A stretch of 64,000 nucleotides of DNA from an uncultured Verrucomicrobiota bacterium (GTDB lineage: Bacteria > Verrucomicrobiota > Verrucomicrobiia > Limisphaerales > SIBE01), in NCBI GenBank assembly GCA_964578605.1, contig CAZODO010000014.1:6102-70101 (forward strand), read 5' to 3'. The notes beneath the pieces are model-generated. The model did not search any database. It had not been told where the DNA came from and saw nothing but the letters and a program-made list of their open reading frames with translations. The position numbers and the translations under genes are program-made. Positions 6,519 to 62,262 of this stretch are shown here, one piece after another. Within the stretch, counting starts at the first letter, position 1. Every line of letters begins with the position of its first letter.

Positions 6519-6520
6519 GG

Positions 6521-9613: not shown

Positions 9614-10187
9614 CGAATGCTCGGCTTTGGCACGGTTTCGGCCTTTATCAATGTGGCGCCGAAGGCGTGCAACACGGTCACATTGCCCTCGCTTGACCCG
9701 TCGCGGGAGTCTGGGGACGTCCGCGGACGGACGGAGCTTCAGGGCTCACTTTACATGGACCACACGGTGTCGAATTCTGGGGAAGAAGCTCTGGCGGCAG
9801 GCTCTGTCTGGATCTCTCCCCCAGCCCGAAAGCTTACAACCACGATTACGCCAAACTGACGCCAGCCTGTAAAGGAACAAAGTTGCGTTTGCGTGGAAAA
9901 AGAAGGCGAGCGCGGCTGCGCAGAGATCCATTTGCTCTCCGGGCCTGAACCGTTAAGCAGCCATTGCTCGCCTTATGGATCCTGCAGAAACCGGCGGAGC
10001 AGCAAGCTGTACAGGTTTCCCGGGCAGCCATGACCGCCCGGAATCTTCGTCCGGAGGCGGTTTCCCGGGCGGAATTACGGGGTGGAAATCTCGGTTGATG
10101 GTATTAAGTGACTATAAACCAAGCCCTTACATCAACGATGACTATTATTCATCACGGACCGCCTACCGATTTGCTGGCGCTCCGGGA

Positions 10188-13100: not shown

Positions 13101-13295
13101 GATCTCCGCCGTTCGCTTTTCCCATTCCACTTCGTCGAACGGGCTGCGCTGGGCGCTGCTAAACACGCGTTGGATCGAAATTGCGTTGTGGGCGCCTCCC
13201 GCGCGTGAACGGCTTCCGCGGCGTCCTGATTTCAACGAGGGCCGGGCGGTTTGGGTCGGGTTGGCGATGCTGGTGGTGTCACGCGCGTCGATCAT
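10188..13295 (-). CDS. nrdJ: Class II (adenosylcobalamin-dependent) ribonucleotide reductase
   Basis: 1035 aa. Motifs PVWFNVG, CFIQSV, NPCSEYVF and ACNLASLN, plus a C-terminal CPNCG...CLNCG zinc-ribbon tail. Confidence 0.9.
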   Translation of the reverse strand: MIDARDTTSIANPTQTARPSLKSGRRGSRSRAGGAHNAISIQRVFSSAQRSPFDEVEWEKRTAEINDDNGKVIFKQEGVEVPKSWSLLATKVVVSKYFYGEQNTPERETSVRQLIHRVCRTIADWGIRDGYFSAQDGEVFYNELSWLGLNQYGAFNSPVWFNVGLYHQYHVGHNSARGGWHYTRESGAAERAATQYEHPQGSACFIQSVDDNMESIMNLAHSEAMLFKYGSGTGTDLTPIRSSKEKLSGGGRPSGPMSFLKVYDQVANVVKSGGKTRRAAKMNTLRDWHGDIEEFIDAKQKEERKAWALIEQGYSGSYNGDAYGSVMYQNENLSVRISDEFMQAALDGREWWTRSVTTGEPLDKKDAKTLLTKIAEGTWICGDPGVQYDGAIQKWHTCKGTEPIHSTNPCSEYVFLNNTACNLASLNLMKFKRPDGIFDVDRFKAAVRIFITAQEILVDNASYPTKEIAENSHIFRTLGLGYANLGSLIMSYGLPYDSDAGRALAGAITAILTGQAYEQSAEISRVTGPFEGYHDARCAHVRKPLAPDNVESMLGVIQLHRQAVEAIQPNQEFHYLKEEARRSWDRALAQGRQHGYRNAQVTVLAPTGTIAFLMDCDTTGVEPDIALVKYKLLAGGGMLKIVNRTVPDALERLGYSPDQIKGIVAHIEKFDTIEDVEEKGEGLKSGLKPEHLEVFDCAFKAFRGKRSIHYLAHLKMMGAAQPFISGAISKTVNLPNECTVADIEDAYIQAWKMGLKCVAIYRDGSKRSQPLNTRKTTEDGAAPSAEGARIRELEEEVAKLRLEAGQPLRRRLPETRQAVTHKFDIAGHEGYLTVGLFDDGQPGELFITMAKEGSTIGGLMDSIGTLTSLALQYGVPLEALTKKFAHQRFEPSGFTKNPDIRNASSIIDYVFRWMAVQFIKGYREANSPEPKQPELAIPGLEDEVKKNVNRPVPELPIAEENPGNGVKLEARRLPLASSNGRNGGSGNGHREIKTLNDAIAHFQQDAPTCPNCGHVAVRNGACFKCLNCGESLGCS

Positions 13296-13445
13296 AGGAT
13301 GGCAGGTTTTGGGGAAAAAGTTGGGCTTAAGGGCGTCAATTCTGGGCTTCTTTCCGGCGGCTAAAATGAACGATTTACGGTGAAAATTCGGATCTGCGGC
13401 GTTGTGTCTTAATCACCATTAGTTGAGTCACTTCAATGACAACAG

Positions 13446-13459
13446 CACTATATGTTGTG
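13446..13459. promoter_or_regulatory. Candidate NrdR box upstream of nrdJ
   Basis: CACTATATGTTGTG resembles the palindromic NrdR operator core (aCACwAtATaTwGTGt). It lies about 150 bp upstream of the nrdJ ATG in an AT-rich leader. I could recognise only one box. Confidence 0.45.
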
Positions 13460-13641
13460 CCCGCTGCAGTGCTTAACCATAGGACTCCAGGCGCAATGAG
13501 CAAGCACTTTTTTTGTAAAATGCTCCTTCTCAGGAAATGCCTGAGCCTCAACGACGGACAGAGCCGCTTTCCGGCATCATGGACCGGCAATCTGTCGGGG
13601 TGAACGATCGGGCTGAGGCAAAGGCAAGCGACGAACGGGAG

Positions 13642-15171
13642 CTACCGGCGCCGTTCGCGCGGCTTGGAGTGGTCCCTCTTTCTCGACTTGGATTCGATGG
13701 TCTTGGGACGCGCTTTGGGCACCAGCACCAGCGGACAGCCCTCAAAGCCGAACGCCGTCCGGAGCCGATGCGTCAGGTAAGTCGTGTACTGATCTGACAT
13801 CAGGTCTTCACGATTCACAAACAGGAGAAAGGTCGGAGGCGCGTTCTTCACCTGGGTGGCATAGAAGAACTTGAGCCGATGCCCGGACGCACTGGGTGGT
13901 TGCCGCTCTTCCACAGCATCGTGCAGGGCGCGATTCAGCAGCGCAGTCGGAATCTTTTGCTGCAATTGCGCAGCGATAAACCGGATGGCCTCGAGCAATC
14001 GCGGCAGGTGGAACCCGGACTTTGCCGAAGCGAAGATCACCGGCGCGTAATCGAGGAAGAAGAGCTGTTCCTGAACCCACGCAGCGAAATCCGACAGTGT
14101 CGTCATCCGCCGTTGAAACCTCTCGTGCGGCCGCATTTTGTTGGCGTGCCGCTCAATTTCCTGTTCGCGCGCGGCGAGCACGCTTTCGGCCACCAGATCC
14201 CACTTGTTGACCACAATGACGCACGCTTTGCGCTCTTCGACGATCTTCCCGGCCACCTTCTTGTCTTGCGCGGTTACGCCCGCTTCGGCATCGAGCACCA
14301 GGACGGCAATATCACATCGCGCAATCGAATCCTCCGTGCGCTTGACGCTAAAGAACTCGATGCTGTTATCGATCCTTCGCTCCTGCCGCACGCCCGCCGT
14401 GTCGACCAGGACGTAATGCTCGCGGACTCCATCCGTTTCCACGTCGAAAGGCACGTCAATGGCATCGCGTGTCGTTCCGGGAATCGGCGTCACAATGACC
14501 CGGTCCGATTGGGTCAAGGAATTGATCAGGGACGATTTCCCGACGTTTGGGCGACCGATAAACGCCAGCTTGAGCGGTTCCTTCGCTAGGGCGGGGCCGG
14601 GCGGGGCGGCTTCGGCCTCCGTTTCACCCGGTTCAAGCGGCGCAGGTTCCAGTGCGCCTCCGCCCACCGGCAGCCAAGCCAGGGCGGCGTCCATCAGAGC
14701 CTCGATTCCAAGCCCGTGAATCGCGCTGACCGGCAGGATTTTGTCGAATCCCAGGGCGGCAAACTCGGCTGCGCCAGGCTCCATGTCCTCAGTGTCGGCT
14801 TTGTTCGCGGCCACAAGCACGCGCTTGGCCGATCGGCGCAGACGCTCCGCCACTTCCTGGTCAAGAGGGGAGATGCCTTCGCGGATATCCACCACGAAAA
14901 GAATGACGTCCGCGGCGTCGATCGCCAGTTCAACCTGTTGAATGGCGGCCTGCAGAATGGTGTCGGCCGACTTTTGACCTCGGAGCAGACCGATCCCTCC
15001 CGTGTCCACCAGGGTGAAGGGGTGCCCGCGCCACTCCGCCTCAAAACTCAGACGGTCCCGGGTGACGCCGGGTTGATCGTGGACAATGGCCACGCGCTTG
15101 CCAACGATCCGGTTGAACAGGGCGGATTTCCCAACATTGGGCCGGCCCACAATCGCAATTATCCCGGGCAT
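13642..15171 (-). CDS. der: Ribosome-associated GTPase Der/EngA
   Basis: Two G domains (GRPNVGKSALFNR and GRPNVGKSSLINS) plus a KH-like C-terminus. I chose ATG 15171 (MPGIIAIVG...). The longer ORF to 15270 overlaps the upstream antitoxin-like gene. Confidence 0.9.
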   Translation of the reverse strand: MPGIIAIVGRPNVGKSALFNRIVGKRVAIVHDQPGVTRDRLSFEAEWRGHPFTLVDTGGIGLLRGQKSADTILQAAIQQVELAIDAADVILFVVDIREGISPLDQEVAERLRRSAKRVLVAANKADTEDMEPGAAEFAALGFDKILPVSAIHGLGIEALMDAALAWLPVGGGALEPAPLEPGETEAEAAPPGPALAKEPLKLAFIGRPNVGKSSLINSLTQSDRVIVTPIPGTTRDAIDVPFDVETDGVREHYVLVDTAGVRQERRIDNSIEFFSVKRTEDSIARCDIAVLVLDAEAGVTAQDKKVAGKIVEERKACVIVVNKWDLVAESVLAAREQEIERHANKMRPHERFQRRMTTLSDFAAWVQEQLFFLDYAPVIFASAKSGFHLPRLLEAIRFIAAQLQQKIPTALLNRALHDAVEERQPPSASGHRLKFFYATQVKNAPPTFLLFVNREDLMSDQYTTYLTHRLRTAFGFEGCPLVLVPKARPKTIESKSRKRDHSKPRERRR

Positions 15172-15235
15172 GGCGGTAACAGGGTGGAGTTCCGGCCTGG
15201 CCGAAAATGAACGAAGCTGGAGGTGTCGATCAGGA

Positions 15236-15466
15236 TCATGCTTCGTCGGCGGATTTGGCCGGCATCTCACGTCCGCGCAGCTTCATCAATTCGTCAAATT
15301 CCATAAAGGTGCTAGAACCTCCCAGGCGGCTGGCGAGGTTGCGCAGCTTGGCGCGGCGGTTTAAATCCTCCAGTGCCCGAATGACTGCTTCCCGCTTCGT
15401 CCTCGCGCCGGAGACGCGCATGGCTCCGGCGAGCAAGGGTTCAGGAATATCGAGCGTCATTTTCAT
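15236..15466 (-). CDS. VapB-type (DUF2191-like, ribbon-helix-helix) antitoxin-like protein with no adjacent toxin
   Basis: 76 aa. MKMTLDIPEPLLAGAMRVSGARTKREAVIRALEDL matches the typical 'TLDIdddLl.eAm...g..tKreaV..AL' N-terminus of this antitoxin family. Confidence 0.6.
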   Translation of the reverse strand: MKMTLDIPEPLLAGAMRVSGARTKREAVIRALEDLNRRAKLRNLASRLGGSSTFMEFDELMKLRGREMPAKSADEA

Positions 15467-15563
15467 CCATCCATTCTCGAAGAATTAGACATCAACCGCA
15501 ATCAAACTCGCTGCATATTCGACGGCCAACGTATGCAAGCGAAAACCGACCTCCTTTCGATGT

Positions 15564-15651
15564 AAACACAATCGATACACAATCGATACACAATAACGAT
15601 TGTGTTTCCATAGTGTTAGCAATGCGTATCTGATGCGTTTAAATCGAATGG
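15564..15651. repeat. Phased 11-bp tandem array A (about 7-8 units, forward then inverted)
   Basis: In strict 11-bp register: aaacacaatcg / atacacaatcg / atacacaataa / cgattgtgttt / ccatagtgtta / gcaatgcgtat / ctgatgcgttt. Dyad at acacaat-aacg-attgtgt. Confidence 0.8.
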
Positions 15652-15836
15652 AGCGCCTGACCGCTGCGGAACAACCACGCCTAAACATTTGCGGGTTGAT
15701 TGATTCGGAACTCGGAGTTCTTTCGGCGCCTTAGGTCTTCGGTCTTCGGGCTTTCCCGCGCCTCTCTTCCCTCACGGGATCGCCGGCTGTTCACCGTGGT
15801 TGGAACCAACGGTGAGAGAAGACCTTTATGCAGAGG

Positions 15837-18419
15837 CTATTCCGTCCGCTGGTATCGGAACACAACGGAGCCCGGACGATCGGTTAAGGCGACCGGTATC
15901 CCTTTGCTTAGGAGATCGTTGCCGGAATGCACGCTTTGGTGCCCCGTGTCCTGGTGGGTGACTGTGTACCGGGCGTTCTTGTCCAAAGCTTGCAATGGGA
16001 TTCGGGCCGATTCGTACGGGCTATCCGGACGGCGCAGAACCACAATCATGCCGTCGCCCGATTCAGGACGGTTAAATTGCCAGGCCATCCAAACGTCGCG
16101 CGCCTGGGAATAGCCGGTGAGGGGATAATAATCGCCATAGTAGAACGGCCGGATGTCCAGGTATTTGTCCAGAATCTGCTTGGCCCAGGCGAATGGGAAA
16201 TCAGGCCGGATCCGTTCCGCGGAAAGATCCCCTGATACCCACCAGTTCAGACAAAGGCCGCTGCACATGCTGCTTCGGAACTCGTAATCGTCCAGCGCAC
16301 GGTCCTGGCTGGTGGCACTTAACGGGACCCAGGCAAGCAGGCCATAGGAATGGCATTGGTGGGCGATGGCGTCGCGCGGGCCGTCCGTCCGCCAGAAAGG
16401 CGTGGCGCGCCCGGTGGTTTCGAGATCGATCCGCCGTCCGCCGCTGGCGCAGTTATCAAGGATGAGATCCGGATGGCGTTCGAGCAAGCCGTCCCAGAAG
16501 GCGTAAAGGCCCTCAATATACCTGATCTCGGCAACGCCCTGGCGGTCGGGGGAATCGGCTGCGCGCCAGAACGGGAGCGGATCGATATTGAAATCCTGGC
16601 GGTAACAGCCCAGGCCGAATTCGCGCACTTTGTCCGAGATGAAATCGGTGAGGAACTGCCGTGCGGCCTGGTTGCCCAGGTTGAACAGCAGGCTGCTGCC
16701 GCCGGTGTCCATCATCCATTCGGGGTGTTCTTTGTGCCAGGCGGAATCCCGGTAAACCCGTTCGGGCTCGAACCAGAGCATCAGCTCGCGCCCGGTCTTG
16801 CGCAGCGCATCGCTCAGGGGTTTGAAGCCCTGGGGGTAAAGGTCCTTTTTGACATTCCAATTGCCGACGCTGACCGGCCAGCCCGCGAACCCGAACCATT
16901 CGGCATCGATCCAGTAGTATTCCACCGGCAATTCGTGCTGGATGATCTTCTGGATGTTGTCCAGGTGCACTTCCGCCCGGGTCCCGCCCCAATTGCCGCA
17001 GGTGATTGGCGCAACGAGCGGTTCGCCCCCGCGCTTCGGACGGTGATGAGCCAGGATGAAGCGGCGCAGGAGGTTCTGGCCTTGCCAGCGGTCGCCTTCG
17101 TAGAAGAGAAGGAGCATGCGCGGCGTCCGAATGCTTTCGCCGGGATGCAGGACCAGGTGGGTGCGATCCAAGCCGGCCTTAAGGGCCACTTGGCCGGCGG
17201 CGTCGCAAGCGAACTCCGCTGCCCATTCGCCGCTCCATCCAATCGCGGCGATCAGGCCGGTGCCGGCGCCTTCGACATTGAAAAAGGGCAGCACCTGGCT
17301 TGAAGACCGACCGCCCCTGGGTTGGAGTCGGAGCTTCGACCCGGACTTGAGGGGGGTGGTTTGCGGCGCGAAATCGTCGAATGACGCCACGCCGCCTTTG
17401 GCCCAATGCAGGGTGGCATTCCCGGACGTGGCGAGCGGCAGCACGGTGTCGATGGCCTGGATCTGCTCCAAAATCGGCGTGTTGGTTGCGCTGGTGTTGC
17501 GAAGATGCACGACCCATTCGACCGCGGGGAAGTCCTTGAAACGAATGGCTTCGGTCCGGATCTCCAGGCCGGTGGCGGGGTCCTGGGTGACCAGCTCGCG
17601 GCGGACGCGCTGGGCATCGATTTGCTGTTCGCGGAGCGTCCGTGTCCAGGGTCGCACTAGGTCGGGACTGTCTTTTCCGCCATATCGGAAGGACCACACT
17701 TCCGGGTTGGAATCCTTGCCGCCCGCGAGCGGAAGGTCCTGGAGGCGCACCTGGGTGCCGTCTTCGAGAGCCACGATCGCCTCGGCCCAGAGCGCTTGGT
17801 CCCAGCCACGTCCATCGCCGCCGTCCCGCACGCGGATCTCGAACTCGCGCGCCCCGTTGAGCGGCAAATCGATGGTTCTGGCGCCATCCTTGCGCCGAAG
17901 GACGGGTGACGCGAATACCTCTTCGCCCGCAACGAGCACGTGGAAGGTCACCGAGCCTTGCCCGAGTTGTTCGCCGCGTTGGGTGTCGTCGTTGTTCTCC
18001 AAGCCGATGTCGGCGGTGAAACGGGCCGCGGGTTTGGGAAGTTGAACCTTCAGATGTTTCGTGGAGTTGAAGGCGATCCCGTGACGATAGGTTTTGTCAC
18101 CCAACTGGAACGGCGTGCTCCGCCACGAACGTCCCCGTGAGAGGCCGTCCGAAACGTCGGTGTAGATGACTTCAAGGGCCGGGCTGCGTCCGGCCGGCGG
18201 TTGCGGACTGAACACATTCTCCCACCAGGCAAGGGAAGCGCTGAATTCAGCCGGTTGAGGCGCGACAGCCCGCGCTTCTGGCATCGACGTCACGACGAGA
18301 AACAAAGCGGACAACATCCAGCCAAAGGCCCGGGCCCAGGAAACACACCCACCATTCGAAAGGCTCGTGACTAGACCTCTGACCTCCGATCTCCGGCCTC
18401 TGGCCTCTTGGATTTGCAT
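15837..18419 (-). CDS. Secreted GH36-like alpha-galactosidase with an N-terminal NPCBM-like carbohydrate-binding domain
   Basis: NPCBM-like block (GDKTYRHGIAFNS...GSVTFHVLVAGEEVF...GWDQALWAEA). Catalytic region CYRQDFNIDP and LILDNCASGGRRIDLE. Start set to ATG 18419, because the track start 18452 is TTG. Confidence 0.65.
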   Translation of the reverse strand: MQIQEARGRRSEVRGLVTSLSNGGCVSWARAFGWMLSALFLVVTSMPEARAVAPQPAEFSASLAWWENVFSPQPPAGRSPALEVIYTDVSDGLSRGRSWRSTPFQLGDKTYRHGIAFNSTKHLKVQLPKPAARFTADIGLENNDDTQRGEQLGQGSVTFHVLVAGEEVFASPVLRRKDGARTIDLPLNGAREFEIRVRDGGDGRGWDQALWAEAIVALEDGTQVRLQDLPLAGGKDSNPEVWSFRYGGKDSPDLVRPWTRTLREQQIDAQRVRRELVTQDPATGLEIRTEAIRFKDFPAVEWVVHLRNTSATNTPILEQIQAIDTVLPLATSGNATLHWAKGGVASFDDFAPQTTPLKSGSKLRLQPRGGRSSSQVLPFFNVEGAGTGLIAAIGWSGEWAAEFACDAAGQVALKAGLDRTHLVLHPGESIRTPRMLLLFYEGDRWQGQNLLRRFILAHHRPKRGGEPLVAPITCGNWGGTRAEVHLDNIQKIIQHELPVEYYWIDAEWFGFAGWPVSVGNWNVKKDLYPQGFKPLSDALRKTGRELMLWFEPERVYRDSAWHKEHPEWMMDTGGSSLLFNLGNQAARQFLTDFISDKVREFGLGCYRQDFNIDPLPFWRAADSPDRQGVAEIRYIEGLYAFWDGLLERHPDLILDNCASGGRRIDLETTGRATPFWRTDGPRDAIAHQCHSYGLLAWVPLSATSQDRALDDYEFRSSMCSGLCLNWWVSGDLSAERIRPDFPFAWAKQILDKYLDIRPFYYGDYYPLTGYSQARDVWMAWQFNRPESGDGMIVVLRRPDSPYESARIPLQALDKNARYTVTHQDTGHQSVHSGNDLLSKGIPVALTDRPGSVVFRYQRTE

Positions 18420-18491
18420 GGTGCCGCCAGGATAGGCCGCTTCCACCGGCAAGCAAGGGCGTAACAGATGGATCGGCGGGCTCAGCCGGCG

Positions 18492-19370
18492 CTAAGGCTT
18501 CCACAACCGATAGAACCGCGCCACGCCGGAGACATTATTCGTCTGCCGGACGGTGTCGCCGCTCAACGCGATCGGGGCCTCAACTACGGTCCAGGAGGAT
18601 TCAGAGCCGGGGAGTGTCGCGCTGGATTGAACGATGACGCTGCGCCAGTTCGCCGGCCAAGCCAGGACAAATCGCCTGGCTGCCAAACGTTCCAGTTCGA
18701 GGGCGGGCGGCGTTGGGTCCTCAGGCTCACCCGCGAGCGCAGAGCAGATCACAGCGGCCATGGCCGACATGCCTTTGGAGTTGGGGTGCACCGTGTCGGG
18801 GAACCATTCCGGATGGCCATCGAGACGGGTATGCAAATCCACAAGATCGAGGTTCAACCGATCCGCAAGGTCGCGCACGGCTGGGGCAATATTGGTGGCC
18901 ACGATCCCAGGGTTGATGCTGTAAGCGCCGCTGCGATACACGGGACACGGGGTGCACGCCATGATGCGGGGCGCATTGGTCAGGATGGCGTAGCTGCGCA
19001 CCATCTCCTCGTAATCGCTGACGAAGTTGGTCCCGGACCGCCAGTTTTGCGGTTTGGAATCGTTCGTGCCCAATTGGATAATGACCACGTCGGGCGCCCA
19101 TTCGTGGCTCTGGGTGAACGCCGGCTCTTTCCAGTAGGGATAATCCCCTTTCTCCAAGAGCGTCCGGCCGCTAATCCCGAAATTGCGCACGCTGTAATTC
19201 GTGCCTAAGAGCCGCTGGAGCTTCGCCGGGTAACTCTCGACCGACGGATTGGACAATCCCGAGCCGAACGTGATGCTGTCTCCGATGCAGGCGATCCTCA
19301 GTTGGGCTCCATGAAGGGCGATCTGCGAGATCAGGAACACGAGAGCAGCCGACAGGGCAGGGTAGACCAT
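18492..19370 (-). CDS. Secreted SGNH/GDSL hydrolase (carbohydrate esterase-like)
   Basis: SGNH blocks IACIGDSITFGSG, IIQLGTNDSK and DTVHPNSKG. N-terminal signal-like segment. Lies 40 bp upstream of the GH36 gene. Confidence 0.75.
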   Translation of the reverse strand: MVYPALSAALVFLISQIALHGAQLRIACIGDSITFGSGLSNPSVESYPAKLQRLLGTNYSVRNFGISGRTLLEKGDYPYWKEPAFTQSHEWAPDVVIIQLGTNDSKPQNWRSGTNFVSDYEEMVRSYAILTNAPRIMACTPCPVYRSGAYSINPGIVATNIAPAVRDLADRLNLDLVDLHTRLDGHPEWFPDTVHPNSKGMSAMAAVICSALAGEPEDPTPPALELERLAARRFVLAWPANWRSVIVQSSATLPGSESSWTVVEAPIALSGDTVRQTNNVSGVARFYRLWKP

Positions 19371-19550
19371 AGGAAGGAGAGTATTCCCGGCCAGTTTGCT
19401 GCGTCAAGGCCACCCAAAACGGTCGCGCCCCGCCCAAAAATGGGGAGAATTGCGGCAAAAGGGTTTGCATGGGGTGCTGAGCGTGATACGCTCACCAGCG
19501 ATTGATGCACACACCGAGAACGCCAGCGGGCCGAGCCGAACTGGAGTTGC

Positions 19551-20069
19551 ATGAACGCTATTCGGCAACGCCTGACAGTACTGCTGGCTGAGGACGACGA
19601 AAACGATTCGCTTCTGATCCGGCGGGCGTTCGACCGCTTGCGCAGCCTCGTTCGTCTGATTGTCATTCCTGATGGCGATACCGCTACTGCGTATCTCCGG
19701 GGTGAGGGGAAATTCTCAGATCGCGAGCGCTGGCCTTTGCCGGACGTTGTCCTGCTGGACCAATGGCTGCCGGGGACCACGGGGCTTGACGTGCTGGCCT
19801 GGATGCGAACCGAAGCGGGCTTGGTCTCCCTTCCCGTCGCCTTGATCAGCGGAGGGATGTCGCCCGTGCATGCGCAGGAAGCGAGCCGATTGCGGGCGGC
19901 CTCATGCGCCAAAGGGGCGGACGCGACCGAGATGATGGAGGCGATCGATTGGGCGATGGAATCCGCCCAAGGCCTGGCATGTGAAGCCTGGTTTGCTTCC
20001 AGGAATGCGTATGCCCCTGCCTGCGCGCAGAGCCCCTATCAGCGAGAGGCTATTCGCGTCTGGACGTGA
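19551..20069 (+). CDS. Stand-alone response-regulator receiver protein
   Basis: LTVLLAEDDENDSLLI...DVVLLDQWLPGTTGLDVLAWMR (CheY-like acidic pocket and phospho-acceptor Asp). No recognisable output domain. Confidence 0.8.
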   Translation: MNAIRQRLTVLLAEDDENDSLLIRRAFDRLRSLVRLIVIPDGDTATAYLRGEGKFSDRERWPLPDVVLLDQWLPGTTGLDVLAWMRTEAGLVSLPVALISGGMSPVHAQEASRLRAASCAKGADATEMMEAIDWAMESAQGLACEAWFASRNAYAPACAQSPYQREAIRVWT

Positions 20070-20095
20070 CGCGTGTATCCGGGCGATTCGTCGGC

Positions 20096-20527
20096 TTATC
20101 CCCAAGGCTTGCGGCCCACGATCAGGCGCGTGAGCTTGGAAAGCGCCCCGCGGTTCCTGGCGATCCTTCGGTAGGCCCATTCGGCCAATCCGGCTGCACC
20201 CGGGACCTTCTGGTAAATCCAGAGCGCCCATCGCTTCGCGGGATTCACCGCCAGAGAGCGCAGGACCGCTTCGGCGCCGCGGAACACTCGGCCGCCCGGT
20301 TCAATCAAGTGGACAGCGGATTCGAATTCGGCCCGCGGCAGGTCGGGGAACCGGTTCGTGACGGAGGGGTCCTGGAACGGCGCGTAATCGATTTGATCTT
20401 CTGTCACCCGTCGCCAGCGCTCGACCCAATAGCGGCAGAACTTGCACTCGCCATCGAAGACGAGGAGGGGCTTTTCCAAGTTCACACGCGGCTCGGCATG
20501 GCGCGTCACGGATAGCGCCCGCTCCAC
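20096..20527 (-). CDS. DCC-family (DUF393) thiol-disulfide oxidoreductase
   Basis: LLVFDGECKFCRYWVERW contains the family CxxC motif. The start is GTG. Confidence 0.7.
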   Translation of the reverse strand: MERALSVTRHAEPRVNLEKPLLVFDGECKFCRYWVERWRRVTEDQIDYAPFQDPSVTNRFPDLPRAEFESAVHLIEPGGRVFRGAEAVLRSLAVNPAKRWALWIYQKVPGAAGLAEWAYRRIARNRGALSKLTRLIVGRKPWG

Positions 20528-20880
20528 GAGTTAAGCCGTTTGTCCGGGCCGAATGTCAGCCGAAGCTGTCTTCCGGAGGGGACGGTGCCCACAGATTGGC
20601 CAATTGAAAAGGCGCTGTTATGGCCGTAGAACCCGGTGCCCAAACCTGCACTGAGCGCCGGACCGGACGCGGCCCTCGAGATCCAGTCGGCGACCACGGA
20701 TCCATCGCTGAGTTCGGCGGCCTTGTCCGGTGGGCCGAGCTCAAGAACGGCCTGGTCATAGGTGTAGTTTCCGATCCGGCTGGCCCAATCAACCTTCGGC
20801 GTGGAGGCGCATCCGGTCCCAAGAAGCGCGACGAGAGCCAGTCCCCAGAGGAATTTTCCTTTCTGCCGGAGTGTTTTCAT
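20506..20880 (-). CDS. Small lipoprotein, function unknown
   Basis: Signal peptide with a lipobox (LVALLGTGCAS). Overlaps the DCC gene start by 22 nt. Confidence 0.55.
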   Translation of the reverse strand: MKTLRQKGKFLWGLALVALLGTGCASTPKVDWASRIGNYTYDQAVLELGPPDKAAELSDGSVVADWISRAASGPALSAGLGTGFYGHNSAFSIGQSVGTVPSGRQLRLTFGPDKRLNSWSGRYP

Positions 20881-20952
20881 GGAGGAACTTACCGGATGCC
20901 GGGCTTCACGGCAACGGAACGGTGGCTTCCCGGCAGGATGGGGGACTCGTGA

Positions 20953-21810
20953 CTAAACGTAAAGCGCCATGCGCAGATCGTGCACGAGCAGGCTCGTGAT
21001 GGGGTAGCGCTTGTCGGCTTCGCGTTCGAGGCACTTCAAAATCGCTTTCTCCAACGCAAACGGGATATCCGCGTTGAGTTCGCGCGGTGGGAGGAAATCC
21101 GAACGGTCAAGCTGTTTGCGGAGGATCTCGTCCGGCGTCTCACCGGGGAAAGGCTTGCGGCCCGCCAGCATCTCGTAGGCGGTCACGCCATAGGCAAAGA
21201 TGTCCACGCGGTGATCAATCGGCTGGCGCAGGAGCTGTTCCGGGGCCATGTAGGCCGGTGTTCCCGGGTTTTCGGACATCTTGTGCGGTTTCTCGGGTTT
21301 CTTTCGCGCCAGGTCGAAATCGACGAGCCGCACGTTCGCATTGCGCGAGACCAGGACGTTTTCCGGCTTGAAATCCAGGTGCATAAACCCGCTGTCATGG
21401 ACGTGCTCGAGGGCGACCGCCATGTCGATAAGGACGTTCCCCACATTCTCCACCAGGACCGGGTCGTTCCGCGAAAAGAGCAGCTTCAAGTTCGAGCCTT
21501 CCACGTACTCCATCACGAGATAAGGCGAGCCGCCCAGTTTGCCGTGCTCCACATAGCCAATGACATTCTCGTGGTTATGGATCTGGGACAGGATCTCGCA
21601 TCCGCGGAAGAACCTCTTCTTTGCCGTGAAGCTGAAAAACGAGGTGTCGCGAAGGCGCCGGAGCGCGAAGGGTTCGTTCTTCTGGTTGGTCACGTACCAG
21701 ATGTCCGCCATCCCGCCGCTGTTGATAAGCTCCTGGAGGTAGTAGGACCCGAATGACCTGTTCCCTTCCGGTGGACTTGAATTCAAACCGTCCGATTCGA
21801 GCGCAAACAT
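20953..21810 (-). CDS. Ser/Thr protein kinase (kinase domain only)
   Basis: HLDFKPENVL, VDFDLA and GTPAYMAPE Hanks-type motifs. About 285 aa with no sensor or transmembrane region. Confidence 0.85.
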   Translation of the reverse strand: MFALESDGLNSSPPEGNRSFGSYYLQELINSGGMADIWYVTNQKNEPFALRRLRDTSFFSFTAKKRFFRGCEILSQIHNHENVIGYVEHGKLGGSPYLVMEYVEGSNLKLLFSRNDPVLVENVGNVLIDMAVALEHVHDSGFMHLDFKPENVLVSRNANVRLVDFDLARKKPEKPHKMSENPGTPAYMAPEQLLRQPIDHRVDIFAYGVTAYEMLAGRKPFPGETPDEILRKQLDRSDFLPPRELNADIPFALEKAILKCLEREADKRYPITSLLVHDLRMALYV

Positions 21811-22003
21811 CACGTGTTTCCTGGTTTAGTTACCGCAATCCGCGGGCCTTTGCAATCCAGACGGGGTGTTCGTTCGTACGCACATCCAATGCGACCCACA
21901 AGGCAATTCAGGGAGGCAACGGCGGCAAAACGCTCAGGGCGAGGGTTGCTCAGCGGCCGCATGGCGCCATTGACATTGAACCATCATCAATCATAATTCG
22001 GCC

Positions 22004-22552
22004 ATGAGATTCATTGCGCTACTGATGGGCAGCCTTTGCTTGATGCAAATGGCGATGGCAAGCGCTTCCTCGCTGTACGAGATCCCCCTGAAAGATATCG
22101 ATGGCAAAGCAACGTCGTTGAAAGCGCATGAAGGCCAAGTGCTACTGCTGGTGAACGTGGCTTCCAAATGTGGTTACACGCCGCAGTACAAAGGCCTGGA
22201 GAGTCTGCACCTGCAGTTCAAAGACCGAGGCTTTACGGTGCTCGGTTTTCCGTGCAACGATTTCGGAGCGCAGGAACCGGGCAGTAACGACGAAATCAAA
22301 AGCTTCTGCTCGGCCAATTATGGCGTGACCTTCCCGCTTTTTGACAAGGTGCATGTGAAGGGACCAGATCAGCACCCGCTTTTCGCCGCGTTAACAGGGG
22401 ACGAATCGCCGCTCCCGGGAGAAATCAAATGGAATTTCTCGAAATTCCTGATCGGGCGAGACGGCAAGCTCGTTCGTCGATTTGAGTCGAAGGTGGCTCC
22501 GGATTCTCCCGAACTCGTCCAGGCGATCAAAGCGGCCTTGGAAAAGAAGTAA
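22004..22552 (+). CDS. gpx: Glutathione peroxidase (Cys-type), secreted
   Basis: VNVASKCGYTPQY, GFPCNDFGAQEPG and KWNFSKFL. N-terminal signal-like segment. Confidence 0.9.
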   Translation: MRFIALLMGSLCLMQMAMASASSLYEIPLKDIDGKATSLKAHEGQVLLLVNVASKCGYTPQYKGLESLHLQFKDRGFTVLGFPCNDFGAQEPGSNDEIKSFCSANYGVTFPLFDKVHVKGPDQHPLFAALTGDESPLPGEIKWNFSKFLIGRDGKLVRRFESKVAPDSPELVQAIKAALEKK

Positions 22553-31504: not shown

Positions 31505-31583
31505 CCTGGCTCTTTGCTTTGAGCAGGGTAACACCAAACCGCTGGTCAAGCCACGAGGCTGCCAGTTGACGCCGCATAGACTA

Positions 31584-31704
31584 TAAACGCACGCTAAACG
31601 CACGCTAAACGCACGATAAACGCACGATAAACGCACGATAAACGCACGATAAACGCATGTATACATGAGTTTACCATGTGTTTAACATGAGTATGACATG
31701 TGTA
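31584..31704. repeat. Phased 11-bp tandem array B (11 units, 121 bp)
   Basis: taaacgcacgc x2, taaacgcacga x4, taaacgcatgt, atacatgagtt, taccatgtgtt, taacatgagta, tgacatgtgta, all in 11-bp register. Lies 80 bp upstream of the DUF4112 ATG. Confidence 0.95.
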
Positions 31705-45817: not shown

Positions 45818-45908
45818 ATGGCCGATTAGACCAGGAAAGACCGGCGTCCGGAAGCAGATTCCCGTGAATCGACGCGCTCTCCCACTCTTCTGCTCCGCCG
45901 CTCCTCCC

Positions 45909-46029
45909 GGTCTTAACACGGTCTTGACACGGTCGTCACCCGGTGATCACCCGGTGATCACCCGATCACGAACGGGTGATCTACGGGTGAACTACGGGTG
46001 AACTACGGGTGAACTACGGGTGAACCCCG
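45909..46029. repeat. Phased 11-bp tandem array C (11 units, 121 bp)
   Basis: ggtcttaacac / ggtcttgacac / ggtcgtcaccc / ggtgatcaccc x2 / gatcacgaacg / ggtgatctacg / ggtgaactacg x3 / ggtgaaccccg. The unit ggtgatcacc is itself a 10-bp palindrome. Confidence 0.95.
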
Positions 46030-46130
46030 TGAGGACCTGGAAAGGAGATCGGCAGCGGCGGTGTGCCAATCGATAACCGGGTGGGGGTCGCGTATCGCCC
46101 GCGTATTGGGGAGGACCACTGCAAGAATCG

Positions 46131-46463
46131 TTAAGGTTTAAGAAGGCAGCAACCCGTTCCGGGATTTCGCGCTGTTTCCGTCGAATTTGCCCAGGCAAAG
46201 GCAGCCTTAAAGCATTCGCGGCCTTGAATATAGCCTGAAACACTATCCACTAACTCGGAGAGGGGCTGTTCCAGAGCGGCGCCCAGGCAGGTCAGGCATC
46301 TTGGCGCGCCGCCCGCTCCCAAGGCGATGCTGGCCAGGACCTGGTGGGCACAGAGGGGTGTCCGGCATGAATGGCATACGGCGGCTTTGGCAGCTTCCAA
46401 GCGCCGGATGAGCGCCAGCGTGTCAGCGGACATGGATTCGGCGCCTGGATCTGACGGTTTCAT
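46131..46463 (-). CDS. Small Cys-rich protein of unknown function, translationally coupled to the LysR gene
   Basis: 110 aa. CHSCRTPLCAH...PRCLTCLG...RECF...GCC. Its ATG overlaps the LysR TGA (ATGA). Confidence 0.5.
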   Translation of the reverse strand: MKPSDPGAESMSADTLALIRRLEAAKAAVCHSCRTPLCAHQVLASIALGAGGAPRCLTCLGAALEQPLSELVDSVSGYIQGRECFKAAFAWANSTETARNPGTGCCLLKP

Positions 46464-59408: not shown

Positions 59409-59624
59409 GCCAGCAACCTAAGGAATGAGTTCCCCATGGTCAAGCTTGGCAGGGGGCGCGGCTTCCCGGAGACGTTGTCACGCACTTTATCCAGCACTTT
59501 GTCCTGAAACGAAGTGGAAGACGCGGTGCGGGACGAAGGGCGTGTGAACGACCGGTCTCAAAGGGCCAGCCCTGCCTTTCCTGGCTCGCCATAGGGCGTG
59601 AAGGTCCTCATATTTCTGGAGCCG

Positions 59625-60992
59625 ATGAAACAGTGCCCCCTCCTTCTTCTTGCGCTAATGCCTCTTGCCCTCTGGGCTGCCGAACCGTGCCAGGTCAACG
59701 TTGTCGATGAAGAGAACGGCTGGCCGGTGCCCCTGATCGAGCTCCGAACCACCCATCAAATGCGCTCCATCACCGACAATGCCGGCATCATCGCTCTCGA
59801 CGCTCCCGAGTTGATGAATCGCGAAACCTGGTTCGACATCGTCGGGCACGGATACGGGGTGCGCCCGGACGGGTTTGGCATGCGCGGCGTCCGGATCACG
59901 CCCACCCCCGGGGGAACGGTGACGGTGAAGGTCAAGCGCGAGATCATCGCGAAACGCCTGGGACGCCTTACCGGCGCCGGGTTGTTCGCGGAAAGCCAAA
60001 AGCTCGGGAAAGACCTGGATTGGCCGGAGTCCGGCGTGTTCGGCTGCGACAGCGTTCAGAACGCGGTGCATCGAGGCAAACTCTTCTGGGCCTGGGGCGA
60101 TACGACCATGCCGCAGTACCCGCTGGGCATCTTTCACATGACCAGCGCCACCACGGCCATCCAGCCTCTCACCTCGTTCGAGCCTCCTGTCCGGTTGAAG
60201 TTCGAATACTACCGCGATGCCAAAGGGGCGCCGCGCGGCGTGGCCGTCATGCCCGGAAGCGGCCCAACCTGGGTCAGTGCGTATGTAAGTTTGCCGGACA
60301 AGACAGGTTCCCCACGCCTGGTTGGCACTTACGTCAAGATCAAGCCGCCTATGGAGGCTTACGAGACCGGCCTCTGCGTCTGGAACGACGCCACCTCAAG
60401 CTTCGAACAGCACCGAGTCCTTTGGACCAAGAGCGACCAGGCACCCAAACAACCCCCGGCTCCAGACGGCCATCCCGCCTTCTGGAAGGATGCGGATGGC
60501 AAGGAATGGGTGCTCTTTGGCAACCCCTTGCCGAACCTCCGCTGCCCGCCCACGTTCGAAGCTTGGTCCGATCCGGCCAAGTGGGAAATCCTCCGCCCAC
60601 AGGAAACCCTCGCGTCGGCGGAAAATGGCGCGCCGGTCAAGCCGCATACCGGTTCGATCGCCTGGAACCCGTTCCGCAAGCGCTGGGTCACCGTCTTCAT
60701 GGAAGTGTTCGGGAAGCCGTCCCCTTTCGGCGAGCTTTGGTATGCCGAGTCCGCGGTTCCCACCGGTCTGTGGGGGAAGGCGGTCAAAGTTGTCACGCAC
60801 CAGAATTACACGTTTTACAACCCGCGTTTGCATCCTGAATTCACCGAAGCGAACTCGCCCATCCTGATCTTCGAAGCCACCTACACGGCGACCTTTGCGG
60901 ATCGGCCGCATCCCACACCCCGATACGATTACAACCAGGTGCTATACCGGTTGGATCTGAACGACCCGGCGCTGGCCGGGGCGCAGAACTAA
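59625..60992 (+). CDS. Secreted hypothetical protein (N-terminal beta-sandwich-like region plus a large C-terminal domain)
   Basis: Signal peptide MKQCPLLLLALMPLALWAA. No family assigned from sequence alone. Confidence 0.5.
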   Translation: MKQCPLLLLALMPLALWAAEPCQVNVVDEENGWPVPLIELRTTHQMRSITDNAGIIALDAPELMNRETWFDIVGHGYGVRPDGFGMRGVRITPTPGGTVTVKVKREIIAKRLGRLTGAGLFAESQKLGKDLDWPESGVFGCDSVQNAVHRGKLFWAWGDTTMPQYPLGIFHMTSATTAIQPLTSFEPPVRLKFEYYRDAKGAPRGVAVMPGSGPTWVSAYVSLPDKTGSPRLVGTYVKIKPPMEAYETGLCVWNDATSSFEQHRVLWTKSDQAPKQPPAPDGHPAFWKDADGKEWVLFGNPLPNLRCPPTFEAWSDPAKWEILRPQETLASAENGAPVKPHTGSIAWNPFRKRWVTVFMEVFGKPSPFGELWYAESAVPTGLWGKAVKVVTHQNYTFYNPRLHPEFTEANSPILIFEATYTATFADRPHPTPRYDYNQVLYRLDLNDPALAGAQN

Positions 60993-61029
60993 ACCCGGGA
61001 ACAGAACAAACGCGGGCCAGGATTCAGTC

Positions 61030-61150
61030 TAAACGCACGCTAAACGCACGCTAAACACATGCTAAATACACGATATACACATGATAAACGCATGAAAACA
61101 TGAGTTTGTCATGTGTGTAACATGTGTTTATCGTGCGTTTCTATCGAATA
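61030..61150. repeat. Phased 11-bp tandem array D (11 units, 121 bp), same family as array B
   Basis: taaacgcacgc x2 / taaacacatgc / taaatacacga / tatacacatga / taaacgcatga / aaacatgagtt / tgtcatgtgtg / taacatgtgtt / tatcgtgcgtt / tctatcgaata. The first 27 nt are identical to the start of array B. Confidence 0.9.
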
Positions 61151-61236
61151 CGATGCCTTGCCGCCCCCTGTTCTCTTCCGGTCTTCCTTGCACCCGGCGC
61201 TTGATCACGCCTCGCCCCGAACGCATTTTCCATCTC

Positions 61237-62262
61237 ATGGACGCCCGTCTGCACCGTGAATTGGTCAACCTCGCCCACTCCTGGATGCAGCATGACTCCG
61301 ATACGCTCCGCGATTACCTCGTGTCCGGCGTCGAAGATCCACGGTTGAACGTGCAAAGCATTCTCCTCCGCCATTTTCTGCTGGTGATCTTGTTCAGGAC
61401 GCGCTTCGAAAACGTCATGGAAGCTGAGCTTCGGTTCGCCACTGTCATGAACTGGGCGCTCGCAACGCTGGAGCAAGTGGCCGGACCGGAAGATCTGCGC
61501 GCCATTCAACATGCGCTTGAGACGGGAGCGGATGACGCCGAGGGCCTTGCGGTGCCGAAGTTCGTGACGATGACGTTCCAAGGTCTCCCGGCGGCGCCGG
61601 ACGGAGTGCCGGTCCCGAATTATCTCGAGGAATGGCTCGATCGGGCAGGGCAGGGGAGCGAGGTTGGGGCATTGGACGATGCGGTCCTTTCCACGTTCGA
61701 ACGCGCCTGGGCAGCAGCGCTGGCCAAAGAGGGTCGCGCCGGTCTCTCGGTCCTGGAATTAGCCTGTGGCTCTGCCAACGATTACCGGTTCTTTGAGCGG
61801 TTCGGCCTCGCCCGCCTGATCGATTACACAGGGATGGACCTTTGCGAGAAGAATATCGCCAACGCCCGGGCGATGTTTCCCGCCGCCCGCTTTGAATCAG
61901 GCAATGCGCTGGAAATCGCTGCTCCGGACGCCGCCTGCGATTGTTGCATCGCGCAGGATCTGTTCGAGCATCTTTCGCTCGACGCGTTGGAAAGAGCCCT
62001 TGACGAGGTCTGCCGGGTGACGCGTCGGAGCGTCTGCCTCGGGTTCTTCAACCTGCACGAAGGCGCCGAGCATATCGAGCAACCGCTGGACCGTTACCAT
62101 TGGAACAGGCTGAGTGTCGCGCGGCTTCGCGAAGGCTTGCACCGGCGCGGTTTCCAGGTGCAGATCGTGCACGTGGAAACGTTTTTGAAATGGCGTTTGG
62201 GCTGTCCGCAGACGCACAACCCAAACGCCTACACTTTGTTCGGCGAGCGGATACCCGGCTGA
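61237..62262 (+). CDS. Class I SAM-dependent methyltransferase
   Basis: VLELACGSANDY (motif I) and ...CCIAQDLFEHL... The start is uncertain (ATG 61237 preferred; ATG 61153 and 61111 lie at or within the repeat array). Confidence 0.6.
   Translation: MDARLHRELVNLAHSWMQHDSDTLRDYLVSGVEDPRLNVQSILLRHFLLVILFRTRFENVMEAELRFATVMNWALATLEQVAGPEDLRAIQHALETGADDAEGLAVPKFVTMTFQGLPAAPDGVPVPNYLEEWLDRAGQGSEVGALDDAVLSTFERAWAAALAKEGRAGLSVLELACGSANDYRFFERFGLARLIDYTGMDLCEKNIANARAMFPAARFESGNALEIAAPDAACDCCIAQDLFEHLSLDALERALDEVCRVTRRSVCLGFFNLHEGAEHIEQPLDRYHWNRLSVARLREGLHRRGFQVQIVHVETFLKWRLGCPQTHNPNAYTLFGERIPG

What the first reader, a model, noticed from the sequence alone, without database searches (positions are those of the whole stretch)
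61030..61150. Array D: a second copy of the array-B family 29 kb away, with internal dyad symmetry
Its first 27 nt (taaacgcacgctaaacgcacgctaaac) are identical to the start of array B. The core acatgagtttgtcatgtgt (61098-61116) differs from array B's acatgagtttaccatgtgt at two positions. The right arm (tgtcatgtgtg taacatgtgtt tatcgtgcgtt) is the reverse complement of left-arm unit types (taaacgcacga, taaacacatg...). It has 11 units over 121 bp and ends 87 bp before ATG 61237 of a methyltransferase gene. Two longer candidate starts fall inside or at the edge of the array and give the same artefactual CVYRAF peptide seen at array B.
Basis: seen in the sequence. Interest (0 to 1): 0.6.

Follow-up and report, generated by a model that had tools for sequence, protein, structure and literature searches.

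The report
Spaced-out palindromic 11-bp repeat element
Array D is a real, non-coding copy of a ~60-member family of small DNA palindromes built from 11-base units. Some 270-350 such elements of several families dot this Verrucomicrobial genome and almost never lie closer than about 8 kb to one another, which points either to transposon-style target immunity or to a role in chromosome architecture.

Summary
Window 61030-61141 is six direct plus four inverted 11-bp units (TAAACGCACG type) around a 4-nt spacer, with a short palindromic flank on each side. It is not a two-copy duplication. It is one of about 60 copies of this family in the 5.95-Mb genome, within a lineage-specific superfamily of about 270-350 period-11 arrays in at least seven unit families. 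The canonical element has 4+4 units. The proposed ACATG-N9-CATGT core is only the junction of the two innermost units: the spacer is not conserved, and all four unit positions are equally conserved. A sister species holds array D at the same site with two units fewer, so the element is old and its unit number changes by multiples of 11 bp. The arms do not co-vary, placement ignores gene orientation, and no known RNA family matches. New here: arrays of all families obey a common minimum distance of about 7.7 kb (3 pairs closer against 48 expected). A hard-core exclusion model reproduces the whole spacing distribution. The scale matches phage Mu cis-immunity. My best reading is a MITE-like foldback element made of phased protein-binding sites, spread under target immunity. 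No partner protein was found.

The parts
61022..61029 (.). Left outer palindromic flank (ATTCAGTC). It is a degenerate copy of the family's flank consensus CTGAATaCGGTC.
   Evidence: Inverted pair I1; family consensus
61030..61094 (.). Left arm: six direct 11-bp units (TAAACGCACG x2, TAAACACATG, TAAATACACG, TATACACATG, TAAACGCATG). That is two units more than the canonical four.
   Evidence: The sister-species orthologue lacks 22 bp here.
61095..61098 (.). 4-nt spacer (AAAA) on the dyad axis. Its length is fixed in the family and its sequence is not conserved.
   Evidence: Gap of exactly 4 nt in all 40 well-formed copies; information about 0 at the two middle positions
61099..61141 (.). Right arm: four inverted units (CATGAGTTTG, CATGTGTGTA, CATGTGTTTA, CGTGCGTTTC).
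61142..61149 (.). Right outer palindromic flank (TATCGAAT).
61237..62262 (+). Class I SAM-dependent methyltransferase gene (Methyltransf_11/25), real start at ATG 61237. It is a neighbour of the element, not part of it.
   Evidence: Homologues are about 341 aa, and the nearest one (86% identical) starts at the equivalent ATG. The database call of 369 aa starts at 61153.
59598..60992 (+). Upstream neighbour gene (464 aa, no family assigned). Its stop lies 37 nt before the array.
31583..31700 (.). Array B, same family (7 strong left units plus a weak right arm).
45906..46025 (.). Array C, TCACCCGTAG family. It is also kept at the orthologous site in the sister species, with fewer units.
15566..15620 (.). 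Array A, ACACAATCGAT family. With B, C and D it gives spacings of 16.0, 14.3 and 15.1 kb.

Best explanation
Array D is one copy of a gene-less, roughly 115-130-bp palindromic ('foldback') dispersed repeat. It is not a gene-specific control site.

Shown:
- The element is two opposed blocks of 11-bp units, one helical turn each. The canonical form has four units per arm around a fixed 4-nt spacer, plus short inverted flanks.
- About 60 copies of this family, and about 270-350 copies of sister families with the same geometry, lie only in intergenic DNA of one narrow Limisphaerales lineage.
- Unit number changes in steps of 11 bp.
- Copies keep a minimum distance of about 7.7 kb from each other, whatever their family.

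Inferred:
- The units are phased docking sites on double-stranded DNA for a sequence-reading protein. This is most likely a transposase-type protein that binds several sites in each end, as in Mu- or Tn7-type transposon ends.
- The elements were spread as non-autonomous mini-ends (MITE-like). They were barred from landing near an existing copy by cis/target immunity.
- After the burst they stayed put. Replication slippage expanded or shrank the homogeneous arm. At locus D this gave 6+4 units against 4+4 in the sister species.
For: - Family and architecture.
- Dispersal of whole elements from master copies: the ACACGTAT family keeps the same order of unit variants in its copies, and a subfamily of the TAAACGCACG family shares a roughly 230-bp palindrome with ends GGTGTCTCCGAAAT.
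- Lineage-specific burst: the unit probe occurs only in G000 and one same-genus genome among 41 relatives. There is no period-11 excess in five other genera.
- Placement follows available intergenic DNA (chi-square p = 0.44). In tandem spacers it is shifted away from the downstream start (median relative position 0.39), and it is independent of gene orientation.
- Double-stranded reading rather than a hairpin: the arms do not co-vary. Complementarity within an element equals that between elements (30.9 vs 31.5 of 55), and native hairpins are no more stable than chimeras.
- Exclusion zone: 3 pairs at 0-7.5 kb against 48 expected for the three big families, and 6 against 77 for all named families. 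It also holds across families (2.5% against 43%; 0 of 1000 simulations). The onset is sharp at 7.7-8.2 kb.
- Random sequential placement with a 7.7-kb hard core reproduces the spacing distribution (CV 0.54 vs 0.525 +/- 0.04).
- Mu cis-immunity in vivo has the same scale: a sharp rise near 5 kb and bulk level from about 7 kb. It depends on transposase bound to multiple end sites (PMC7350765).
- The three big families share unit geometry. Read by eye, they fit WWMAC-N-C-R-Y-R with the AC about 9 nt from the dyad. One protein, or close paralogues, could therefore read all three.
Against: - No partner was found. There is no rve-type transposase in the assembly.
- The resident Mu-like prophage has different end sites (TTTTCAAACTWT).
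- No gene is bracketed by separated arms.
- No target-site duplication could be seen at the best-defined ends (by eye only).
- Both arrays that could be compared (C and D) sit at orthologous sites in a species whose neighbouring protein is 86% identical. There is therefore no direct sign of recent movement.
- Immunity across families needs a shared reader, which is unproven.
- The sister genome has only two arrays in 83 kb.
- The genome is a 178-contig MAG, and the gene calls behind the null models are my own simple ones.
Confidence: 0.45

Rival explanations
1. Host-maintained architectural sites. The arrays are docking platforms for a nucleoid-associated protein, and selection rather than insertion immunity keeps them at least about 8 kb apart. 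The protein would sit on four phased sites per arm across a two-fold axis and act as a loop anchor or supercoil-domain barrier.
For: - The minimum-distance rule is family-independent.
- Gaps of 30-50 kb are somewhat rarer than under pure exclusion (0.041 vs 0.087 +/- 0.022; 6 of 300 simulations).
- Arrays C and D are retained at orthologous sites. Parts of them are conserved better than the flanks: the D left arm is 84% identical against 50% for the adjacent flank, and array C aligns at high identity by eye while one flank is unalignable.
- The period is one helical turn in every family.
Against: - Unit sequences differ between families, so several readers or a shape reader would be needed.
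- The trait is absent from neighbouring genera, which is odd for a basic chromosome function.
- The sister genome has an array-free stretch of about 50 kb.
- Apart from the deficit of 30-50-kb gaps noted above, the spacing fits exclusion alone, with no periodic tiling.
Confidence: 0.25
2. REP/REPIN-like elements. The arrays would act as single-stranded DNA hairpins and be moved or maintained by a RAYT-type (IS200-like Y1) transposase.
For: - The elements are intergenic, palindromic and present in hundreds of copies, in lineage-specific families.
- G000 encodes seven Y1_Tnp genes.
- Two families carry GTAG in every unit (CCCGTAG, TCCGTAG), which recalls GTAG-tagged REPs (PMC3733652, seen).
- Array D folds strongly as a single strand.
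Against: - No Y1 gene is flanked by period-11 arrays.
- The two classical RAYT-like genes are flanked by ordinary short GC-rich hairpins.
- The arms show no element-specific complementarity.
- The TAAACGCACG family lacks GTAG and CGTC.
- REPs are not built from tandem units.
Confidence: 0.12
3. Operator arrays of a transcription regulator, for example an OmpR/PhoB-type winged-helix response regulator that reads 11-bp direct repeats. The arrays would define a large regulon that includes the methyltransferase gene.
For: - The 11-bp direct-repeat period, and the TGTTTA/CGTTTA hexamers 11 bp apart, resemble PhoP/PhoB-type boxes. This comparison is from my own knowledge, not tested here.
- Array D ends 86-95 nt upstream of the start codon.
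- There is a weak promoter-like match inside the right arm.
Against: - About 10% of arrays lie between convergent genes, at the same density per kb as in tandem spacers.
- Placement follows intergenic length rather than promoters.
- There is no orientation rule relative to genes.
- Neighbouring genes have no common function.
- An exclusion zone has no place in a regulon model.
Confidence: 0.06
4. A structured RNA element, such as a stabilising hairpin, terminator or small RNA, transcribed from the spacer.
For: There is a strong predicted RNA hairpin (-51.5 kcal/mol, z = -6.8), 37 nt after an upstream stop codon.
Against: - No Rfam family reaches threshold; the only matches are weak, generic hairpin (miRNA-type) hits on both strands.
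- There is no T-run terminator.
- The arms do not co-vary.
- Elements occur in both orientations and in divergent spacers.
Confidence: 0.04

Closest known systems
REP / BIME / REPIN elements with RAYT transposases (Proteobacteria)
   Same: Short, intergenic, palindromic and non-coding. Present in hundreds of copies per genome, in several lineage-specific families. Y1 transposase genes are present in the genome.
   Different: Here each arm is a tandem array of 11-bp units with a fixed 4+4 design. The arms do not co-vary. The Y1 genes are not flanked by these arrays. My literature searches found no report of a minimum-distance rule for REPs.
BrickBuilt MITE/minisatellite of Porphyromonas gingivalis (PMC4596501)
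   Same: An intergenic, species-restricted MITE-like element whose body is a tandem array of short units with a variable unit number.
   Different: BrickBuilt has 23-nt units, all in one direction, between a leader and a tail, and 19 copies. The elements here have 11-bp units in two opposed arms, about 60 copies per family and several families.
Ends of Mu- and Tn7-type transposons, and their cis/target immunity (PMC7350765)
   Same: Several transposase sites lie in direct order in one end and inverted in the other. Copies exclude new insertions nearby. The in vivo scale for Mu (sharp rise near 5 kb, bulk level by about 7 kb) matches the 7.7-kb exclusion found here.
   Different: No transposase, no AAA+ target selector linked to the arrays and no target duplication were found. 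The sites here abut each other at 11 bp instead of being about 22-bp spaced sites. The resident Mu-like prophage uses other end sequences.
Foldback (FB) elements of Drosophila (from my own knowledge, not tested)
   Same: The inverted terminal arms are themselves built from tandem short repeats, and many copies have no internal gene.
   Different: FB elements are eukaryotic, kilobase-sized, and have a different unit structure.
parC centromere of plasmid R1, and 11-nt direct-repeat operators of PhoP/PhoB-type regulators (from my own knowledge)
   Same: Runs of 11-bp repeats are read cooperatively on one face of the helix.
   Different: Those are single loci or promoter-bound operators. They are not hundreds of orientation-free intergenic palindromes.

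Membership tests
REP/REPIN-RAYT system | A cognate RAYT (Y1 transposase) gene flanked by its own repeat family | tested here: not met
   Seven PF01797 genes were found. None has period-11 arrays on its flanks, and two are flanked by other short hairpins.
REP/REPIN-RAYT system | Hairpin whose two arms are kept complementary within each copy | tested here: not met
   Complementarity within an element equals that between elements. Native hairpins are not more stable than chimeras.
REP/REPIN-RAYT system | Conserved GTAG or CGTC tag at the foot of the hairpin | tested here: not met
   The TAAACGCACG family has neither tag. The TCACCCGTAG family has GTAG in each unit.
MITE (non-autonomous DNA transposon) | Many dispersed copies with shared terminal inverted repeats and no coding capacity | tested here: met
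   About 60 copies share inverted ends (CTGAATaCGGTC|TAAAC...) and a subfamily is palindromic over about 230 bp.
MITE (non-autonomous DNA transposon) | Target-site duplication at each copy | tested here: inconclusive
   No duplication is visible at the best-defined ends. However, the ends are fuzzy and the copies are old.
MITE (non-autonomous DNA transposon) | Autonomous relative with the same ends, or presence/absence polymorphism | tested here: not met
   No gene lies between separated arms, and there is no rve transposase. Both comparable sites are occupied in the sister species. A MAG may have lost IS copies.
Mu/Tn7-type ends with target immunity | Copies avoid each other's neighbourhood over kilobases | tested here: met
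   3 pairs against 48 expected within 7.5 kb. A hard-core model fits the distribution.
Mu/Tn7-type ends with target immunity | DDE transposase plus AAA+ target protein that recognise the end sites | tested here: not met
   No rve hit. The PF02914 and PF09299 searches were uninformative because their controls were silent. The prophage MuA ends differ from the array units.
OmpR/PhoB-type direct-repeat operator | Sites lie in promoter regions of a functionally coherent regulon, oriented relative to the gene | tested here: not met
   Placement is proportional to intergenic length and includes convergent spacers. There is no orientation rule, and the neighbouring genes are mixed.
Known RNA families (Rfam 15) | Match at the gathering threshold | tested here: not met
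   Only sub-threshold generic hairpin hits were found.

The most novel reading that the evidence does not exclude
The period-11 foldback arrays are not passengers but a chromosome-spacing system. Several sequence families are read by one protein or by close paralogues. They are kept as mutually exclusive anchor points at least about 8 kb apart and act as loop or supercoil-domain boundaries. This would be a sequence-encoded ruler for bacterial nucleoid organisation that arose in one Limisphaerales lineage. Analogous cases are hinted at in other phyla by earlier notes of this scan.
Probability: 0.2. Interest if true: 0.85.

Novelty: new variant of a known kind. Interest (0 to 1): 0.64.

Why it matters
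For annotation:
- Array D should be marked as a repeat element.
- The methyltransferase gene should start at 61237, not inside or at the edge of the array.

For biology:
- One bacterial lineage carries hundreds of palindromes built from one-helical-turn units, in at least seven sequence families that share one geometry.
- These elements obey a common minimum distance of about 7.7 kb.
- A cross-family exclusion rule is hard to explain by chance, by assembly artefact or by recombination between copies.
- It means either that a transposition system with Mu-like target immunity has tiled the chromosome, or that the cell uses these arrays as spaced architectural sites.
- Either answer would add a new case to the small set of bacterial dispersed repeats whose logic is understood.
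- The rule is directly testable in complete genomes and by DNA-pulldown.

Tried and rejected
1. Autonomous element. I looked for genes bracketed by same-family arrays and for solo arms with a distant partner. There were none, and every 'solo' arm has a degenerate partner next to it.
2. Neighbour-gene enrichment for a transposase or regulator. Only large secreted proteins, prepilin-like proteins, an ECF sigma family and an aldo-keto reductase family were enriched.
3. rve transposases: no hit. The Mu DDE_2 and Mu-transpos_C searches were uninformative because their controls were silent.
4. Resident Mu-like prophage as mobiliser. Its end next to tRNA-Val carries three TTTTCAAACTWT sites, not array units, and there is no array inside the prophage.
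5. RAYT link: the Y1 genes are not flanked by arrays.
6. There are seven genes. One (C8:26788-27120) lies between opposed arms of TCCGAA-type short repeats, but none is associated with the TAAACGCACG family.
7. The same 21-mer in other phyla. Two-unit direct repeats lie next to integrase and tRNA genes in termite Treponema MAGs, and right after an AlbA_2/HATPase_c_4 gene in Lachnospiraceae. No homologous protein exists in G000, so I treat this as coincidence.
8. Strain variants. The D-specific junction is absent from JGI metagenomes, and the family probe gave only three hits.
9. Phage carriage: only two unrelated two-unit matches.
10. Orthologues in same-genus species genomes: too diverged (about 68% nucleotide identity) and not syntenic.
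11. Periodic tiling rather than exclusion: not supported, because the hard-core model suffices.

Full report
**Observation.**
- TRF finds period-11 and period-22 arrays at 61029-61100.
- The repeat finder gives six in-register direct copies at 11-bp steps and inverted arms of 42-45 nt that are 76-81% complementary.
- A script confirmed four details. The 27-nt prefix is identical to array B. The 'cores' differ at two positions. ATG 61111 and 61153 are in frame with ATG 61237. The CVYRAF peptide comes from translating the repeat in both arrays.
- Read against the family, the structure is six left units (61030-61094), a 4-nt spacer (61095-61098) and four right units (61099-61141), plus short inverted flanks (61022-61029 and 61142-61149).
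- As a single strand the element folds far better than shuffles (RNA z = -6.8, DNA z = -7.7).

**Family and superfamily.** The window is C14:6102-70101 of a 5.95-Mb, 178-contig, 61% G+C assembly.
- Genome-wide, TRF returns 513 period-11 rows against 24 for period 10 and 126 for period 12.
- These merge into 383 arrays. Of them, 363 lie outside my own gene calls, and together they make up 0.37% of the genome.
- They fall into a few unit families:

| Family | Arrays |
|---|---|
| TCACCCGTAG | about 100 |
| TAAACGCACG | about 60 |
| ATAACACGTAT | about 55 |
| Several smaller families | 11-22 each |

- Array D belongs to the second family. Every copy has forward units, then reverse units.
- In 40 well-formed copies the gap between the innermost 10-mers is always 4 nt, and 37 copies have 8-10 units in total.
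- I aligned 34 copies on the dyad. The consensus is TAAACGCACG-(TAAACnCATG)x3-NNNN-(CATGnGTTTA)x3-CGTGCGTTTA.
  - Information is equal at all four unit positions (1.33-1.46 bits per position).
  - There is essentially none in the middle of the spacer.
  - A further inverted flank is present (CTGAATaCGGTC / GACCGnATTCAG).
- A subfamily of about eight copies is palindromic over about 230 bp, with ends GGTGTCTCCGAAAT.
- The other large families share the design of 4+4 units, a central 4-9-nt spacer and CCGG-containing ends.
- By eye, the three big families fit a common unit pattern, WWMAC-N-C-R-Y-R, with the AC about 9 nt from the dyad. This is read directly from the sequences.

**Distribution among genomes.**
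- A two-unit probe matches 84 times in G000 and 22 times in one same-genus genome. It matches nowhere in 39 other relatives.
- Across 185,579 species genomes, the Limisphaerales hits all come from that same-genus MAG.
- Samples of 200-400 kb from five other genera of the family and order show no period-11 excess.
- JGI metagenomes hold only three matches.
- This is a narrow, lineage-specific expansion.

**Age and dynamics.** The methyltransferase downstream of D has an 86%-identical homologue on a 9.9-Mb contig of a Verrucomicrobiia MAG.
- That locus is syntenic and carries the array at the same place with 4+4 units. It has 22 bp fewer in the left arm.
- Identity by segment:

| Segment | Identity |
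|---|---|
| Left arm | 84% |
| Right arm | 63% |
| Flank between the upstream stop codon and the array | 50% |
| Flank between the array and the ATG | 67% |

- Array C is also kept at its orthologous site. It has fewer units, and a different base has been homogenised at the variable position of its strong arm.
- The elements therefore predate the split of these species. Unit number changes in multiples of 11 bp, and units within an arm evolve in concert.

**What the elements are not.**
- The arms do not co-vary. Left-right complementarity within an element equals that between elements (30.9 vs 31.5 of 55).
- Native hairpins are not more stable than chimeras and are, if anything, less so. Many copies pair a homogeneous 'strong' arm with a diverged 'weak' arm.
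- Rfam gives only sub-threshold generic hairpin hits.
- There is no terminator-like T-run, and only one weak promoter-like match.
- Placement across divergent, tandem and convergent spacers follows the available intergenic length (chi-square p = 0.44).
- In tandem spacers the arrays sit nearer the upstream stop codon (median relative position 0.39).
- The orientation of the conserved arm is unrelated to neighbouring gene starts.
- Neighbouring genes have no common function.
- These results argue against a regulon operator, a terminator and a structured RNA.

**The spacing rule (new).** In the window, arrays A-D belong to three families yet lie 16.0, 14.3 and 15.1 kb apart.
- Genome-wide, for 214-215 arrays of the three big families, only 4 of 103 within-contig neighbour spacings are below 7.5 kb. 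About 40% are expected under each of three null models (0 of 1000 simulations).
- Counting all pairs, 3 fall at 0-7.5 kb against 48 expected. For all named families the figures are 6 against 77.
- The ratio returns to about 1 at 7.5-10 kb and peaks at about 1.5 at 10-12.5 kb.
- The onset is sharp at 7.7-8.2 kb.
- The rule holds across families. Only 2.5% of TAAACGCACG arrays have a TCACCCGTAG or ACACGTAT array within 7.5 kb, against 43% expected (0 of 1000 simulations).
- Random sequential placement on the real lattice of spacers with a 7.7-kb hard core reproduces the whole distribution (CV 0.54 vs 0.525 +/- 0.04). The genome sits at 55-70% of the packing limit.
- The pattern is therefore exclusion, not periodic tiling.
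- Assembly breaks cannot explain it. Only 32 of 383 arrays lie at contig ends, and homology-driven artefacts would not act across families.
- In 82.8 kb of the complete sister genome only the C and D orthologues occur, 15.4 kb apart. That is consistent with the rule but too little to test it.

**Mechanism.** Several features fit a dispersed, non-autonomous element:
- a compact palindrome made of contiguous, helically phased sites;
- copies that retain a master order of unit variants;
- a lineage-specific burst;
- gene-blind intergenic placement.

Mutual exclusion over kilobases is the hallmark of cis/target immunity in transposons whose ends carry several transposase sites. For phage Mu in vivo, insertions rise sharply near 5 kb and reach bulk level from about 7 kb outside the ends, and this depends on MuB (PMC7350765). 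That scale matches the one found here. I therefore favour MITE-like 'mini-ends' spread under target immunity, with later slippage giving D its two extra units. These steps are inferred.

What weakens this reading:
- No rve transposase was found.
- The resident Mu-like prophage has different end sites and no arrays inside it.
- No gene lies between separated arms.
- No visible target duplications were found.
- No insertion polymorphism was seen.
- Cross-family immunity needs a shared reader.

The main rival is that the host keeps the arrays as spaced architectural sites. It is favoured by retention at orthologous sites and by slightly fewer large gaps than exclusion alone predicts. It is disfavoured by the absence of the trait from neighbouring genera. 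A REP/RAYT-type mechanism is a weaker rival. Seven Y1 genes exist, but none is flanked by arrays and the arms do not co-vary.

**Comparison with known systems.** The closest described kinds are:
- REP/BIME/REPIN elements;
- the BrickBuilt MITE/minisatellite (PMC4596501);
- Mu/Tn7 ends with immunity;
- from my own knowledge, Drosophila foldback elements and 11-bp repeat operators or centromeres.

Two full-text searches found no description of bacterial foldback elements built from 11-bp units, and a third found none of a minimum-distance rule for such repeats. Earlier notes of this scan describe arrays B and C of this genome in the same terms. One note reports a similar avoidance of close neighbours for 11-bp foldbacks in rumen Bacteroidales. 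Those notes are leads, not evidence.

**Limits.**
- The genome is a MAG.
- The gene calls behind the null models are my own simple ones.
- Family assignment used motif counts.
- The sister genome could only be read in 20-kb pieces.

Noticed in passing
G000 contigs C25:57567-58013, C104:124-558, C36:29516-30265, C82:23247-24014, C164:7069-7434, C54:329-900, C24:62239-62631: There are seven IS200/RAYT-like Y1 transposase genes. The two short ones (C25, C104) are flanked on both sides by ordinary GC-rich REP-like hairpins (for example CCCGGCGTTGAAACGCCGGG). This is a separate classical REP system in the same genome.
   Followed up: partly
G000 C8:26788-27120 and flanks: A PF05635 (23S rRNA intervening-sequence / Avd-like four-helix-bundle) gene lies between opposed arms made of TCCGAA-type short repeats. 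Other copies (C7, C13, C19) share a TCTGAGATGCGCACC inverted repeat.
   Followed up: partly
Loci L018, L027, L037, L040 (termite-gut Treponema/Spirochaetaceae MAGs); L019-L043 (Lachnospiraceae): The same 10-mer occurs as two direct repeats 11 bp apart (TAAACGCACG-N-TAAACGCACG). In spirochaetes it sits between a tRNA gene and an integrase gene. In Lachnospiraceae it sits 1-2 nt after the stop of an AlbA_2/HATPase_c_4 winged-helix gene. These are probably unrelated binding sites, and no homologous protein exists in G000.
   Followed up: partly
window about 46130-46460, minus strand (spacer between the LysR gene and array C): About 330 nt are well conserved between the window and the sister genome (many identical columns in the alignment). 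They read as a small Cys-rich ORF (MSADTLALIRRLEA...) that my gene caller missed and that the sister record does not list.
   Followed up: no
window 61153-62262: The public gene call for the methyltransferase (369 aa) starts at ATG 61153, at the edge of the array. Homologues (about 341 aa) support ATG 61237.
   Followed up: yes
Locus L036 (2.7-kb contig of a MAG labelled Nitrosomonadales): It carries a complete TAAACGCACG-family element, with the subfamily flank seen in G000. The contig is probably a mis-binned Limisphaerales fragment.
   Followed up: no
G000, e.g. C18:375-476, C1:112996-113031, C91:4236-4270: The CTACGGAG family consists of direct repeats only (3-9 units) inside a longer conserved, non-palindromic context. 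It is a different architecture with the same 11-bp period.
   Followed up: no
G000 C17:~6400-22075: The Mu-like prophage (MuA at 12392-14287, MuB-like at 14301-15485) ends beside tRNA-Val. Three TTTTCAAACTWT sites lie in its last ~200 bp. No period-11 array lies inside it.
   Followed up: partly
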